A DNA stretch of 39,038 nucleotides from a virus (taxonomy: Duplodnaviria > Heunggongvirae > Uroviricota > Caudoviricetes). Position 1 is the stretch's first letter, and every line of letters begins with the position of its first letter. The position numbers are program-made. Location of the stretch: the IMG/VR virus record IMGVR_UViG_2721755725_000014, one strand, 5' to 3'. Below are positions 30,001-33,000 of the stretch, piece by piece.

Positions 30001-33000
30001 CTTTATTAAATGCTAGTGTGAAGGCTACAGGTGCATACCCAATTGTTGCGCCAACTTGATATTCATCAACAGTTTTGTTTAGCGATACTGTTGTTTGTTT
30101 CGTCTGTATTGTTTTTCCTTCGAGAGTATAGTTGCGATTGACATCTCGTCTTTCCATACCTGCAAAAATCTTGTATTTGAATCCGCTTGTATCGGACATA
30201 TGCATTAAACCACGGGGAGCCAGCAGACCAAAGCCATTATCCGAATTGAAGGTTTTATCATTACCAATGGCAATGGTTGCGCCATATGCTACATATTGAA
30301 ATAAGTTTCCAGTAACAGCAGAAACTTCAGGGTATAATCCAACATTAGCACCTAAAATATCCATACTTGGTGTCATGGATAGCATCCCTTTTACAGTATA
30401 ACCGTAGCGATTCTCTATTTGATCATCCCATGCATGATATTTTTCTGCCCCAATAATCTCATGAGCTTTATTTTGTACTTTCTGACCGCCTGCGTCGGGG
30501 CCAACAACACCTATGTCAGTACCTAATCGATAGCGAATCCAGTCATTCGCAAGGGAGTTCCATTCAATACCAGTGTGAGTGTATGCACTAAAAGCTCTGT
30601 CTCCAGTTACAGCTGTGTTGTGTCTTTTATTACTGCCTGATGGAGAGTAAATATCTTGCGCAATATGGAGAGATAATTGGCTCGAGTCTGAGATATCGTG
30701 GCTATATCCCAGAAATAAGCCTTGTGAGTAATCATCTCTGTTTTCATGTTTATTGCCATAAATATCATTAAGTATTGGTTGAAACTTCCCTGCATCATCA
30801 TTTGCTAATGATAATGCAAGGCTGTTCGCGATAGCTGAACACGTGGTAAATGACAGAGCAATAAAGACGCCAGCGATGACACTTTTTTTCATATGTTATT
30901 GTCTTCCTTTTTTTTGAATGGTGCGCGTATTTTACATACATGAGTTTGTAATACAAGGTGCGTAATCAATATGATGTTTTATAATTGCGTGAGACAATTG
31001 ATTTATTCGTTTTTTATTGCGGTTTTTATTATCTTTTAATGTAACGGTGTTTTTATTAAGTGTGTTTGCGTGGTGTTTTATGTTTTTTATAATTTTTATT
31101 TTATTAAATTTAAAAGCATTAGTAATGGCTATTCTATATAGCAATATAAGAACTGTTACAAAAAAAGGGGGGGGCAATTACAGGTAGTTATGGATGATGA
31201 GTGAAACAGATATTGGAGAACCGGGGAATGAATGATGTCTGAGTCTTATATATCAGAACTCCTTCGCTGTCGCTGGGGGCTCGTGTGCTTATGTCGTTTC
31301 CCCGATTCGGTTTTGAACGATTACCGAATGTTGAAGAATTATGCCAAAATATAGAAAGGATTTACTGCATGAATACCCAATATTTACAGTATGTTCGTGA
31401 GCAACTTATGGCAGCTACTGCTGACTTGAACGGAGCAACGAAAGGCCAGCTCGAAGCCTGGCAGGAGCATGCACAATTTGATACTGGTACATACAAACGA
31501 AAGAAGCCGCGCATTCTGGATGTGGTAACTGGCAAGATGATTACGCTGGATAATACGCCGACTTCCGGTAAGCAGTCGTACGCAAAAGGTTCATCCATTG
31601 CTTTGGTCAGCCCGGTTGAATTCTCAACCTCTTCATGGCGCCGCGCGGTTTTGTCTCTCGATGAACATCAGAAAGCATGGTTGCTTTGGTGTTACAGCGA
31701 AAGCGTTCGATGGGGGCATCAGGTCACCATAACGCAATGGGCATGGAGCGAGTTTAAAGATTTGTTAAGTAACAGAAAAATTGCAGGTAAGACACTGGAT
31801 CGCCTGAAGACGTTAATCTGGCTGGCTGCACAGGATGTGAAGAGCGAACTTGCAGGGCGTGAGGCCTATGAATACCAGACACTGGCATCATTGGTGGGAG
31901 TGACAACAAAAAACTGGTCCGAGACATTTACTGAACGCTGGGTTGCAATGAAGCACATTTTTCTACAGCTTGATAGTGATGCTTTATTGCTTGTGACGAG
32001 AACACGTTCAAAACAAAAGGCAGCATTTTTACAGCAAAATATTGCAAAACTGGATTAAAAGCCATATACTTCATGCAAATTTGGTATGTTGTAAAAAATG
32101 TATAAACCCGCTGCCGAGTGGGTTTTTTTTATGCCCTGAGTTGTACTTGTACGGTAAACATGCTGGCTGCTATGTAATAGAGTTTTTTTAGCCTGTAACC
32201 TCTTGACGGCATTGAATTGCTTTTGTTATGAGTTGTAAGCCAATGTTATCATCTTGTATTGGGGTGGTTATGAAGGATGGTGCGCTGCTCAGGAGTTCTT
32301 CACTTTTTATTGCCTACATGGGATGCCTTGGATGGGGGAGTGCTTATTTCTATGGATGGGGTACTTCTTTTTACTACGGCTTCCCATGGTGGATTGTAGG
32401 TGCAGGTGTTGATGATGTTGCCAGAAGTTTATTTTTTGCAGTTATCGTCATTGCTATATTTCTTATCGGTTGGGGTATTGGTGTTGTATTCTTTTTCGCA
32501 GTGAAAAGAAAACATTCTATGCAAGAGCTAAATGTATTTCGCCTTTATTTTGCTGTGGAATTATTGTTTGTGCCGGCAATTATTGAGTTTTCTATATTGA
32601 GACAGAAGATTCAGGTACCTCTTTTGCTACTGTCAGCAGCGATTGCGCTGGCGGTTACAATTTCGATAAGATCTTATGGGCGATTTTTATCGGTATCATG
32701 CTTCTATGATAAGCCATTTATAAAAAAACATTTTTTTGAGATTGTGATGATTGCTTTTGTGGCATATTTTTGGCTTTTTTCATTTTTGACAGGATATTAC
32801 AAACCACAGTTTAAGAAAGAATATGAAATGATTAATTATAATGATGGTTGGTATTATGTTCTTGCTCGTTATGATAATTGTCTGGTTTTGTCTACTTCTT
32901 TCAATGCAGGTAGTAAAAGGTTTGTCATTTATCAATCAGCACAAGATAAGAATCTTCAGGTTGATATTGTAAGGACCAGAATTTAATTGGCTGCATAAAT

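What the first reader, a model, noticed from the sequence alone, without database searches (positions are those of the whole stretch)
31285..32986. Unassigned two-gene cargo (257-aa cytoplasmic protein plus 252-aa polytopic membrane protein) at the position where Stx phages carry their toxin genes
Between the Q stub and nanS-p lie two plus-strand ORFs with no function I can assign from sequence. The 257-aa protein has host-like composition and is followed by an intrinsic terminator at 32104-32130. The 252-aa protein is very AT-rich with several aromatic-rich hydrophobic segments and lies upstream of a separate promoter-like and terminator unit. A soluble protein paired with a membrane protein inside a prophage moron slot is a common layout for abortive-infection, superinfection-exclusion or conversion functions. 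This is my leading candidate for an undescribed system, though the 257-aa protein could instead be a Q analogue of another family.
Basis: inference. Interest (0 to 1): 0.7.

Follow-up and report, generated by a model that had tools for sequence, protein, structure and literature searches.

The report
Phage Q regulator plus orphan membrane gene
The "two-gene cargo" is not a system: the first gene is the prophage's own well-known late-gene switch (a phage-82-type Q antiterminator with its promoter and terminator), and only the second is cargo, a membrane protein of a catalogued but unstudied family (TfpB) that is often found next to toxin and virulence genes.

Summary
Both ORFs exist, but both are over-extended and they do not form a pair. 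The 257-aa ORF is a 229-aa Q antiterminator (31369-32058).

The 252-aa ORF is really a 238-aa gene (32270-32986) of the TfpB family (Pfam PF27470, PHROG 1521). It is 100% identical to a "putative membrane protein" of classical phage 434 and occurs in 692 of 5426 complete E. coli genomes. It is under purifying selection and has its own promoter, which is conserved across unrelated genomic contexts. The predicted protein has five transmembrane helices and a small, probably periplasmic, beta domain, with no enzyme-like conserved residues and no structural or defence-system match.

The gene occurs without Q82 downstream of at least two other Q types (Pfam PF06530 and the unclassified Q of phage 2B8). 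It also occurs next to LT, LT-II-like and pertussis-like toxins, cdt, sseJ and lpxR, and on Shigella pINV. Its function is unknown. My best guess is a non-enzymatic envelope or host-adaptation factor made in the lysogen, with superinfection exclusion as the main rival. Ordinary overall; the virulence-locus association is the only lead worth following.

The parts
29718..29789 (+). Stub of a lambda-type Q gene (first ~20 codons). It marks the left edge of the replacement that brought in lpxR, ylcG and Q82.
   Evidence: Translation MRLESVAKFHSPKSPMMSDS. Annotated as an N-terminal fragment of lambda Q in phage 434 and as a partial antitermination protein in O111 RefSeq.
29933..30892 (-). lpxR, an outer-membrane lipid A 3'-O-deacylase. 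It is a recurrent neighbour of the tfpB-family gene.
   Evidence: Pfam PF09982, 6.8e-40. LpxR is adjacent to TfpB in three different arrangements.
31232..31354 (+). ylcG-like small ORF upstream of Q.
   Evidence: Annotated as YlcG-like or YlcG family in phage 434 and O111. The same ylcG-Q order is seen in phage 82 (orf45) and PhiR47_2.
31369..32058 (+). Q antiterminator of the phage 82 type, 229 aa.
   Evidence: PF06323 1.7e-91 over profile positions 1-216 of 220. phrog_304 3.3e-108. 203/229 identical to phage 82 Q.
32042..32070 (+). Late promoter pR': TTGCAA, 17 nt spacer, TATACT. It overlaps the 3' end of Q.
   Evidence: Promoter scan. Both hexamers are conserved in four Q82-type phages.
32082..32090 (+). 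-10-like element (TGGTATGTT) in the initially transcribed region. Inferred sigma70-dependent pause and Q-loading site.
   Evidence: Conserved as TG(G/A)TAT in four Q82-type phages, while sequence further downstream diverges. Q82-side homology ends at 32091. The role is inferred from published phage 82 biology (my knowledge).
32104..32133 (+). Intrinsic terminator tR' of the short pR' transcript.
   Evidence: 9-bp stem plus T-run. Fold energy. Each Q82-type phage has its own terminator at this place. Weak full-length match of 32065-32134 to the prophage sRNA family STnc240, E = 0.54.
32203..32232 (+). Own sigma70-type promoter of the tfpB-family gene: TTGACG, 18 nt spacer, TG-n-TATGAG.
   Evidence: The -35 hexamer, the spacing and the -10 hexamer are conserved upstream of homologues in phage, ETEC plasmid and C. 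rodentium chromosome, while the flanks are unrelated. This spacing was not picked up by the simple scan.
32270..32986 (+). tfpB-family gene, 238 aa: a polytopic inner-membrane protein.
   Evidence: Precomputed PF27470 'TfpB' for identical and related proteins. phrog_1521 2.1e-154. dN/dS 0.05-0.19. AlphaFold2 pLDDT 80.8, five helices plus a beta domain.
33072..33230 (+). DUF3927 small membrane protein ("TciB-like"). It accompanies only the 434-type tfpB allele.
   Evidence: PF13064 3.4e-14. Present after tfpB only in the window, 434, 2B8, O111 and L014.
33241..33445 (+). Candidate STnc100/PasD-family small RNA ending in a strong terminator (33416-33434). It overlaps the 62-aa ORF 33287-33475.
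   Evidence: Rfam RF02076, 41.4 bits against a gathering score of 47, E = 1.6e-6, full model length. A better copy (80.9 bits) lies upstream of tfpB in L008. Terminator; fold z = -2.55.
33529..35379 (+). nanS-p, a sialate O-acetylesterase; the next late-region gene.
   Evidence: Domains DUF1737, SASA and DUF6645.
35827..36530 (+). Lysis genes: phage-21-type holin S and the endolysin.
   Evidence: PF04971 1.2e-32 and PF00959 8.4e-46.

Best explanation
The interval holds two unrelated things side by side.

(1) The prophage's late-gene switch. A phage-82-type Q antiterminator (31369-32058) is followed by its cognate late promoter pR' (32042-32070), a -10-like pause element where Q loads onto RNA polymerase (32082-32090), and the terminator tR' (32104-32133). 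Without Q, pR' makes a transcript of about 55 nt. With Q, polymerase reads through tR' and the later terminator at 33416-33434 into nanS-p and the lysis genes.

(2) One cargo gene (a "moron"). It is a 238-aa TfpB-family inner-membrane protein (32270-32986) and the first gene behind tR'. It has its own conserved sigma70 promoter. It is therefore most likely made at a low level in the lysogen and boosted by Q-dependent read-through after induction.

The predicted protein has the N-terminus in the cytoplasm, five transmembrane helices, and a small SH3-like beta domain in the periplasm. It has no conserved catalytic-type residues, so it most likely works by binding something in the envelope rather than as an enzyme.

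My committed guess for its role is a host-adaptation or envelope accessory factor of pathogens that modulates a surface or periplasmic structure (about 45% of my belief). The alternatives are superinfection exclusion (about 25%), helping release or assembly of periplasmic toxins or pili (about 10%), a functional link to LpxR lipid A deacylation (about 8%), and other (the remainder).

Shown: the gene identities, the anatomy, conservation, and context. Inferred: transcription from the two promoters, the topology, and the function.
For: Q:
- PF06323 1.7e-91 and phrog_304.
- 89% identity over all 229 residues to the characterised phage 82 Q.
- The whole segment 31200-33528 is 99.9% identical to phage 434, where the gene is annotated as Q82-like.
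- The promoter hexamers and the pause element are conserved in four Q82-type phages, each followed by a terminator.

Modularity:
- Homology to Q82-type phages stops at 32091.
- Homology to phage 2B8, which has a different Q, starts at 32105.

The TfpB-family gene is real:
- dN/dS is 0.05-0.19 against six homologues.
- It is present in 692 of 5426 complete E. coli genomes.
- It belongs to family PF27470/phrog_1521, including Moraxella 'protein tfpB'.

Own promoter and start codon:
- A TTGAC/TTGAT -35, an 18-nt spacer, a TAT-led -10-like hexamer (least clear in the Stx-like prophage L008), and a Shine-Dalgarno sequence before Met15 are kept in the 434-type phage copies (window, 2B8, E. albertii, Escherichia sp.), the Stx-like prophage L008, the ETEC plasmid and the C. 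rodentium chromosome, with unrelated flanks.
- The Salmonella homologue (STM1630 by synteny with sseJ) has a mapped promoter of its own, with a different upstream sequence. Mutation of its -10 box silences the gene in ST313 (PMC6785131).

Structure and topology:
- AlphaFold2 pLDDT 80.8, pTM 0.74.
- The charge pattern of the loops fits N-in, C-out.
- The family-wide invariant positions are only A, G, P and Y.

Host-adaptation leaning:
- STM1630 is co-regulated with SPI-2 and PhoP-type genes (PMC2639726) and is expressed in macrophages.
- Neighbours are virulence or surface genes in most contexts: lpxR and pmrD; eltAB; sseJ; LT-II-like and pertussis-like toxins; iroBC and bor; cdtABC, an RTX exporter, pilin, capsule and O-antigen genes; Shigella pINV between virA and spa40.
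Against: - No transcript data for this locus were available, so both promoters and the read-through are sequence inferences.
- The function of the TfpB family is untested anywhere.
- The STM1630 deletion had no macrophage replication defect.
- The hypermotility seen for it in a screen was not among the phenotypes confirmed later.
- The virulence-gene neighbourhood may reflect only a shared landing slot (the Q-to-lysis moron region and its decayed remnants) rather than shared function.
- In several Pasteurellaceae the neighbours are housekeeping genes.
- This prophage is rearranged: IS copies are present and the integrase abuts the endolysin. Q-dependent late expression may therefore no longer lead to phage production here.
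Confidence: 0.8

Rival explanations
1. The TfpB-family protein is a single-gene superinfection-exclusion or abortive-infection factor. As an inner-membrane protein with a periplasmic domain, it would block DNA entry of other phages or kill the cell on infection.
For: - It is a prophage moron with its own promoter.
- It is polytopic with a small periplasmic domain, an architecture common among exclusion proteins (my knowledge).
- Its distribution is patchy, with divergent alleles (46-68% identity) occupying the same slot behind Q genes of different families.
- There are often two copies per genome.
Against: - No PADLOC match.
- Alleles are under purifying, not diversifying, selection.
- The gene is kept at one fixed chromosomal locus across S. 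enterica subspecies and is co-regulated there with SPI-2 and PhoP-type genes.
- It is present on Shigella pINV and ETEC toxin plasmids, and in Pasteurellaceae and Moraxella loci with no phage genes nearby.
Confidence: 0.25
2. One reading: the 257-aa and 252-aa proteins form a two-component defence or conversion system.
For: Only adjacency and a shared strand.
Against: - The first protein is Q, 89% identical to phage 82 Q.
- A promoter, a pause site and a terminator lie between the two genes.
- A recombination junction lies between them at 32091-32105.
- The membrane gene is found without Q82 in at least eight other contexts.
- Q82-type genes are found without it.
Confidence: 0.02
3. TfpB-family proteins are accessory factors for periplasmic or surface virulence structures. 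They would help release or assemble AB-type toxins, or act like the TfpY/FimB pilin accessory proteins of type IV pili.
For: - The gene lies between an LT-II-like operon and a pertussis-like AB5 operon in one prophage type.
- It lies next to eltAB on ETEC plasmids and next to cdtABC in Glaesserella.
- It occupies the stx slot here.
- The founding member lies inside the Moraxella pilin inversion region, between pilin genes.
- TfpY-like proteins are of similar size (235-245 aa), with N-terminal transmembrane helices and a periplasmic beta-rich C-terminus, and they act non-enzymatically on pilus assembly (PMC11841053).
Against: - Homology to TfpY/FimB could not be shown: three transmembrane helices there against five here, and no such names among the hits.
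- Adjacency to toxins is explained more simply by a shared moron slot.
- Orientation relative to the toxin genes varies.
- Many copies have no toxin or pilin nearby.
Confidence: 0.12
4. The protein is a functional partner of LpxR (and PmrD) in lipid A remodelling, for example controlling deacylase latency or vesiculation from the inner-membrane side.
For: - lpxR is adjacent in three different arrangements, with co-diverged sequences (about 70% identity for LpxR, 66-68% for TfpB) in prophages and on the C. rodentium chromosome.
- pmrD is also present in some of these.
- lpxR is a virulence-regulated lipid A deacylase in EHEC (PMC6393859).
Against: - Most TfpB contexts lack lpxR, including Salmonella, ETEC, Shigella, Yersinia and Pasteurellaceae.
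- In the window, Q and its promoter sit between the two genes.
- There are no enzyme-like conserved residues.
Confidence: 0.08

Closest known systems
Phage 82 Q antiterminator with its pR'-tR' late-control cassette (Pfam PF06323)
   Same: - 229 aa, 89% identical along the full length.
- The same upstream genes: ybcO, rusA and a ylcG-like ORF.
- The promoter, the -10-like pause element and a terminator follow directly, as in other Q82-type phages.
   Different: - Here the cassette sits behind a truncated lambda-type Q and an inserted lpxR.
- The terminator and everything beyond 32105 belong to a different, exchangeable cargo module.
- Activity was not tested.
Phage 434 genes CPT_434_67 to CPT_434_70 (OL657226; Feiss et al. 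2022, PMC9119081)
   Same: 99.9% nucleotide identity over 31200-33528, with the same gene order: lpxR, ylcG-like, Q82-like, terminator, putative membrane protein, TciB/DUF3927, small ORF, SASA esterase, pinholin.
   Different: - The nin region upstream differs: ybcO-rusA-ninH here, ninG-ninI in 434.
- 434 annotates the membrane gene from Met6 (247 aa). Family comparison favours Met15.
TfpB family, Pfam PF27470 (Moraxella bovis tfpB in the pilin inversion region; Salmonella STM1630)
   Same: - Same family by profile searches.
- Same length.
- Same N-terminal aromatic/glycine motif and C-terminal beta domain.
   Different: - Only 27% identity to the Moraxella protein and 46% to the Salmonella protein.
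- The genomic setting differs: prophage late region here, against a pilin switch or a chromosomal virulence islet.
- No member has a demonstrated function.
Classical lambdoid morons in the Q-to-lysis region (stx, and bor- or lom-type conversion genes)
   Same: - A single gene with its own promoter.
- Lower GC than its surroundings.
- Inserted in the late operon just behind tR', so it can be expressed both in the lysogen and on induction.
- Other members of the family sit in the same slot beside real toxins.
   Different: - It is not a toxin, lipoprotein or outer-membrane protein.
- There is no dedicated terminator directly after the gene. The next strong one is at 33416, after DUF3927 and the sRNA candidate.
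TfpY/TfpZ/FimB pilin accessory proteins of type IV pili
   Same: - Similar size.
- N-terminal membrane helices plus a periplasmic beta-rich C-terminal domain.
- No enzyme motifs.
- Encoded next to pilin genes, as Moraxella tfpB is.
   Different: - Three predicted transmembrane helices against five.
- No sequence link was found with the tools available.
- The enterobacterial copies are not next to pilin genes.

Membership tests
Q antiterminator, phage 82 type (PF06323) | Full-length match to the family profile above the curated threshold | tested here: met
   306 bits against a cut-off of 25, profile positions 1-216 of 220. phrog_304 3.3e-108.
Q antiterminator, phage 82 type (PF06323) | Close identity to the experimentally characterised phage 82 Q | tested here: met
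   203/229 identical, no gaps.
Q antiterminator, phage 82 type (PF06323) | Late promoter with a promoter-proximal -10-like pause element, followed by an intrinsic terminator, directly downstream of Q | tested here: met
   TTGCAA-17-TATACT, then TGGTATGTT, then a hairpin with a T-run. The elements are conserved in four Q82-type phages.
Q antiterminator, phage 82 type (PF06323) | Position between the nin/rusA genes and the lysis genes on the same strand | tested here: met
   ybcO, rusA and ninH upstream; nanS-p, holin and endolysin downstream.
Q antiterminator, phage 82 type (PF06323) | Antitermination activity at its own pR' | not testable with these tools
   Needs a reporter or an in vitro transcription assay.
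TfpB family (PF27470 / phrog_1521) | Significant match to the family model | tested here: met
   Precomputed PF27470 on the identical protein P0001 and on all relatives. phrog_1521 2.1e-154. The local Pfam copy lacks this model, so one search gave no hit.
TfpB family (PF27470 / phrog_1521) | Homology to the name-giving Moraxella tfpB | tested here: met
   tblastn E = 1e-19 to the M. bovis locus. A profile search returns the Moraxella 'protein tfpB' carrying PF27470.
TfpB family (PF27470 / phrog_1521) | Shared architecture: N-terminal aromatic/glycine motif, membrane helices, C-terminal beta domain | tested here: met
   Alignments, AlphaFold2 model, charge pattern.
   TfpB without Q82. Q82-type genes without TfpB.
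   A promoter, a pause site and a terminator lie between them. A recombination junction lies at 32091-32105.
   No PADLOC hit at E <= 1 for either protein or for the small neighbours.
Moron (independently expressed cargo gene in a prophage) | Own promoter | tested here: met
   The -35 hexamer, the 18-nt spacer and the -10 hexamer are conserved in unrelated contexts. This is sequence evidence only.
Moron (independently expressed cargo gene in a prophage) | Base composition unlike the neighbouring phage genes | tested here: met
   36% GC against 46% for Q, 56% for nanS-p and 51% for the window.
Moron (independently expressed cargo gene in a prophage) | Own terminator directly after the gene | tested here: inconclusive
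   None directly after 32986. The next one, at 33416-33434, follows DUF3927 and the sRNA candidate.
TfpY/FimB pilin accessory proteins | Sequence or fold homology to TfpY, TfpZ or FimB | not testable with these tools
   No TfpY or FimB sequence or model was available. No such names appear among the hits. The published description gives three transmembrane helices against five here.

The most novel reading that the evidence does not exclude
The TfpB family is a dedicated, non-enzymatic inner-membrane accessory factor of horizontally acquired virulence loci. It is shared by Enterobacteriaceae, Pasteurellaceae and Moraxella, and travels with AB-type toxins (LT, LT-II-like, pertussis-like, CDT, and the stx slot), with lpxR, sseJ and iro, and with pilin switches. 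It would act on the envelope, for example in release or assembly of periplasmic toxins or surface filaments, or in envelope remodelling inside the host. The phage copy would be a true lysogenic-conversion gene.
Probability: 0.2. Interest if true: 0.65.

Novelty: already known. Interest (0 to 1): 0.3.

Why it matters
The practical gains are corrections to the annotation.
- The Q82-type switch, its promoter and its terminator are placed exactly.
- Two ORF starts are corrected.
- A supposed defence pair is dissolved.

The membrane gene itself is widespread. It is in about one in eight complete E. coli genomes, in 106 Shigella plasmid records in PLSDB (the one inspected is the virulence plasmid pWR501), on ETEC toxin plasmids, and next to sseJ in all three Salmonella enterica genomes sampled (including subspecies arizonae and diarizonae). 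No function is known for it.

If its steady association with toxin and virulence loci reflects function, it would be a new and easily testable virulence-associated envelope factor. Classical phage 434 would be a ready genetic system for testing it.

Tried and rejected
Searches that gave nothing for the membrane protein:
- Local Pfam and NCBIfam gave no hit. The family model PF27470 is newer than the local Pfam copy.
- Scanning all 50 family members against Pfam at E <= 1 gave no recurrent weak hit.
- PADLOC gave nothing.
- A PDB sequence profile search gave nothing.

Structure:
- The first AlphaFold2 model, from a shallow alignment, was poor (pLDDT 58). A deeper alignment raised it to 80.8.
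- The AFDB50 library was not available.

Literature and loci:
- Searches for "TfpB" returned only unrelated type IV pilus usages.
- The Jobling 2016 paper on the LT-II prophage is not held.
- The search for related loci failed with the most divergent alignment and worked with a narrower one.

Ideas rejected:
- A DUF3927 ("TciB") partnership. It accompanies only the 434-type allele. The TciB name rests only on an untested P1 annotation.
- The CII-box annotated in 434 over the gene start. The motif is not conserved in other contexts.
- The STM1630 motility phenotype from a screen was not among the phenotypes confirmed later.
- Starts at Met1 or Met6. Met1 lies inside the gene's own promoter, and Met6 lies at about the predicted transcription start, so neither is likely to be translated from that transcript.
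Full report
**What is in the sequence.** The terminator at 32104-32130 also exists. The 59-nt stretch from the predicted start to the T-run folds at -15.3 kcal/mol, z = -2.5. The second ORF is AT-rich, 36% GC against 51% for the window, and has several hydrophobic, aromatic-rich segments. The "Q stub" is real. Positions 29718-29789 translate to MRLESVAKFHSPKSPMMSDS.... The identical sequence is annotated as an N-terminal fragment of lambda Q in phage 434 and as a partial antitermination protein in E. 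coli O111. NinH (29533-29721) lies just before it and lpxR (29933-30892, minus strand) just after it.

**The first gene is Q.**
- The 257-aa ORF matches Pfam PF06323 (Phage_antiter_Q) at 1.7e-91 over almost the whole profile, and PHROG 304 at 3.3e-108.
- From the ATG at 31369 it is 229 aa long and 203/229 identical, without gaps, to the phage 82 Q antiterminator.
- The 28 extra N-terminal codons overlap the ylcG-like ORF. They are used neither in phage 82, nor in phage 434, nor in RefSeq.
- The 3' end of the gene carries a promoter, TTGCAA-17-TATACT, at 32042-32070.
- About nine bases after the predicted start lies an extended -10-like element, TGGTATGTT (32082-32090).
- The terminator follows.
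- In an alignment with three other Q82-type phages (PhiR47_2, PPompW, Klebsiella KO-TP1), the -35, the -10, the start region and the -10-like element are conserved. Sequence beyond them diverges, and each phage then has its own hairpin terminator.

From published work on phage 82 (my knowledge), this is the layout of pR', the sigma70-dependent pause where Q engages RNA polymerase, and tR'. The interval 32065-32134 also gives a weak full-length match to the prophage sRNA family STnc240 (E = 0.54). That fits a short terminated pR' transcript but proves nothing by itself.

**The two genes belong to different modules.** Similarity to Q82-type phages ends at 32091. Similarity to phage 2B8, which has a different Q gene, begins at 32105 and runs through the membrane gene, DUF3927 and nanS-p. 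A recombination junction therefore lies between the pause site and the terminator. The whole stretch 31200-33528 is 99.9% identical to classical phage 434 (OL657226). There it is annotated as YlcG-like, Q82-like activator, terminator, putative membrane protein, TciB, putative membrane protein, terminator, SASA esterase (Feiss et al. 2022, PMC9119081).

**The second gene: identity.**
- The local Pfam and NCBIfam libraries give no hit. PHROG 1521 (unknown function) matches at 2.1e-154.
- The big protein database carries the precomputed Pfam family PF27470, named TfpB, for the identical protein and all relatives.
- Almost all homologues are 236-238 aa and start at the residue that is Met15 of the 252-aa ORF. 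The ETEC copy starts with GTG at the same place, and a Shine-Dalgarno sequence precedes it.
- The gene is under purifying selection, with dN/dS of 0.05-0.19 against six homologues from 98% to 46% identity.
- It is present in 692 of 5426 complete E. coli genomes, often twice.
- The family is small: 72 clusters at 50% identity among 1.84 billion proteins.
- It occurs in Escherichia, Shigella, Salmonella, Citrobacter, Cronobacter, Klebsiella, Enterobacter and Yersinia. It also occurs in many Pasteurellaceae, in Conchiformibius and in Moraxella. The Moraxella copy is the old "tfpB" ORF between the invertible pilin genes.

**The second gene: protein.**
- With a 50-sequence alignment, AlphaFold2 gives pLDDT 80.8 and pTM 0.74. 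The model has five long helices (10-36, 47-79, 84-111, 116-137, 155-181) and a five-stranded beta domain (184-235).
- The family-wide charge pattern of the loops fits an N-terminus in the cytoplasm and a C-terminal domain in the periplasm.
- The most conserved part is the N-terminal motif GWGSAYFYGWG..YYGFPWW..G.D.(V/I)ARSL.
- Over all 50 sequences, the near-invariant residues are only A15, A25, Y26, G31, G37, P39, G175 and Y195. Nothing looks like a catalytic residue.

**The second gene: expression signals.** Upstream of the Met15 start there is a promoter, TTGACG (32203-32208), 18 nt, TG-n-TATGAG (32227-32232). The same -35, spacing and a TAT-led -10-like hexamer (least clear in the Stx-like prophage L008) are kept upstream of homologues in 2B8, E. 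albertii, an Stx-like prophage, the ETEC LT plasmid and the C. rodentium chromosome, although the flanking DNA is unrelated. The ATG at 32228 lies inside this -10 hexamer. The gene is thus a moron with its own promoter. By position it is also the first gene read by Q-modified polymerase. These are sequence inferences, because no transcript data were available. The Salmonella homologue does have a mapped promoter of its own, with a different upstream sequence.

**Context survey.** The gene does not depend on Q82. It is found in the following settings:
- behind a Q of Pfam family PF06530 in Yersinia;
- behind the unclassified, non-Q82 Q of phage 2B8;
- behind Q82-family genes, followed by a methylase;
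- in Stx-phage-like late regions after the methylase, tRNAs and an STnc100 sRNA, and before lpxR, pmrD and nanS-p;
- between an LT-II-like operon and a pertussis-like AB5 operon, just before the holins, in a Cronobacter-type prophage;
- divergent from eltAB on ETEC plasmids;
- divergent from sseJ in Salmonella, which makes it STM1630 by synteny;
- divergent from lpxR on the C. rodentium chromosome;
- near iroBC and bor in ExPEC-type islands;
- on 106 Shigella plasmid records, located between virA and spa40 on pWR501;
- on another IS-rich plasmid;
- in Pasteurellaceae next to cdtABC, an RTX-type exporter, capsule or O-antigen genes, or plain housekeeping genes.

DUF3927 ("TciB-like") follows it only in the 434-type allele. 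The TciB name goes back to an untested annotation of phage P1.

**What is known about relatives.**
- STM1630 clusters with SPI-2 and PhoP-type genes in regulator-mutant transcriptomes (PMC2639726).
- It is expressed in macrophages in strain 4/74 and is silenced by a -10 box mutation in ST313. Its deletion did not change replication in macrophages (PMC6785131 and bioRxiv 450098).
- A hypermotility score in a deletion screen (PMC4219756) was not among the phenotypes confirmed in the follow-up study (PMC4534456).
- The neighbour lpxR is a Pch/Ler-activated lipid A deacylase in EHEC (PMC6393859 and PMC9263587).
- TfpY/FimB pilin accessory proteins resemble the family in size and general layout, and they act non-enzymatically on pilus assembly (PMC11841053). 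I could not show homology, and they are described with three transmembrane helices, not five.

**Interpretation.** The interval is the late-gene switch of a lambdoid prophage followed by one cargo gene. Its fallback, that the first protein is a Q analogue of another family, is correct. For the cargo gene I commit to a non-enzymatic inner-membrane envelope factor made in the lysogen and boosted on induction.
- The most likely role is host adaptation of pathogens (about 45%). This rests on the virulence-type regulation in Salmonella and on the neighbourhood.
- Superinfection exclusion is the main rival (about 25%).
- A role in toxin or pilus release or assembly is about 10%.
- A role in LpxR-linked lipid A remodelling is about 8%.

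The striking adjacency to toxins may simply reflect that the Q-to-lysis region is the common landing slot for morons, whose remnants survive after prophage decay.

**Novelty and score.** Both genes are identical or nearly identical to annotated genes of phage 434 and to RefSeq proteins. Q82 is experimentally characterised, and the TfpB family is catalogued but unstudied. The finding is therefore already known as sequence and ordinary in architecture. The one lead is the consistent link of an uncharacterised membrane protein family with virulence loci. Interest 0.3.

Noticed in passing
window 33241-33445 (+), overlapping ORF 33287-33475: A full-length but sub-threshold match to the prophage sRNA family STnc100 (41.4 bits, gathering score 47, E = 1.6e-6). 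It ends in a strong terminator. The 62-aa "putative membrane protein" annotated here in phage 434 may really be an sRNA of the STnc100/PasD group, which a 2026 preprint links to Q and lpxR neighbourhoods.
   Followed up: partly
window 32091-32105: A recombination junction. Similarity to Q82-type phages ends at 32091, and similarity to phage 2B8 (different Q) starts at 32105. The terminator therefore travels with the cargo module, not with Q.
   Followed up: yes
L060 2655-7091 (Cronobacter-type prophage); also L061 and L062: A TfpB homologue sits between an LT-II-like enterotoxin operon and a pertussis-like AB5 toxin operon. It lies behind a Q82-family gene and just before the holins and the endolysin.
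   Followed up: partly
L063 7001-7717 (Shigella flexneri pWR501); 106 Shigella plasmid records: An intact TfpB homologue (57% identity) occurs in 106 Shigella plasmid records. On the virulence plasmid pWR501 it lies between virA and spa40 and is annotated only as hypothetical.
   Followed up: partly
window 29718-30892: A lambda-type Q gene is cut off after about 20 codons, and lpxR (minus strand) follows. The lpxR-ylcG-Q82 block has replaced the original Q, exactly as in phage 434.
   Followed up: yes
window 1908-2798, 25345-26235, 9050-25195, 36496-39038: The prophage is rearranged.
- There are two equally scoring IS3-family transposase ORFs.
- The structural genes between them are on the minus strand.
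- An integrase gene overlaps the end of the endolysin gene and is followed by a pectinesterase-like (ybhC-type) host gene.
The late operon is thus cut off from the virion genes.
   Followed up: partly
window 6414-7304 (-): A 296-aa ORF with an OspG-type kinase domain (NleH-like type III effector) lies in the same prophage.
   Followed up: no
window 32223-32236: TTGT-N6-TTGT, annotated in phage 434 as a possible CII box over the start of the membrane gene. The motif is not conserved upstream of homologues in other contexts.
   Followed up: partly
L008 6825-6871 (-): A sub-threshold AgvB (anti-GcvB sRNA) match lies between tfpB and lpxR in an Stx-like prophage (38.7 bits, gathering score 56).
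   Followed up: no
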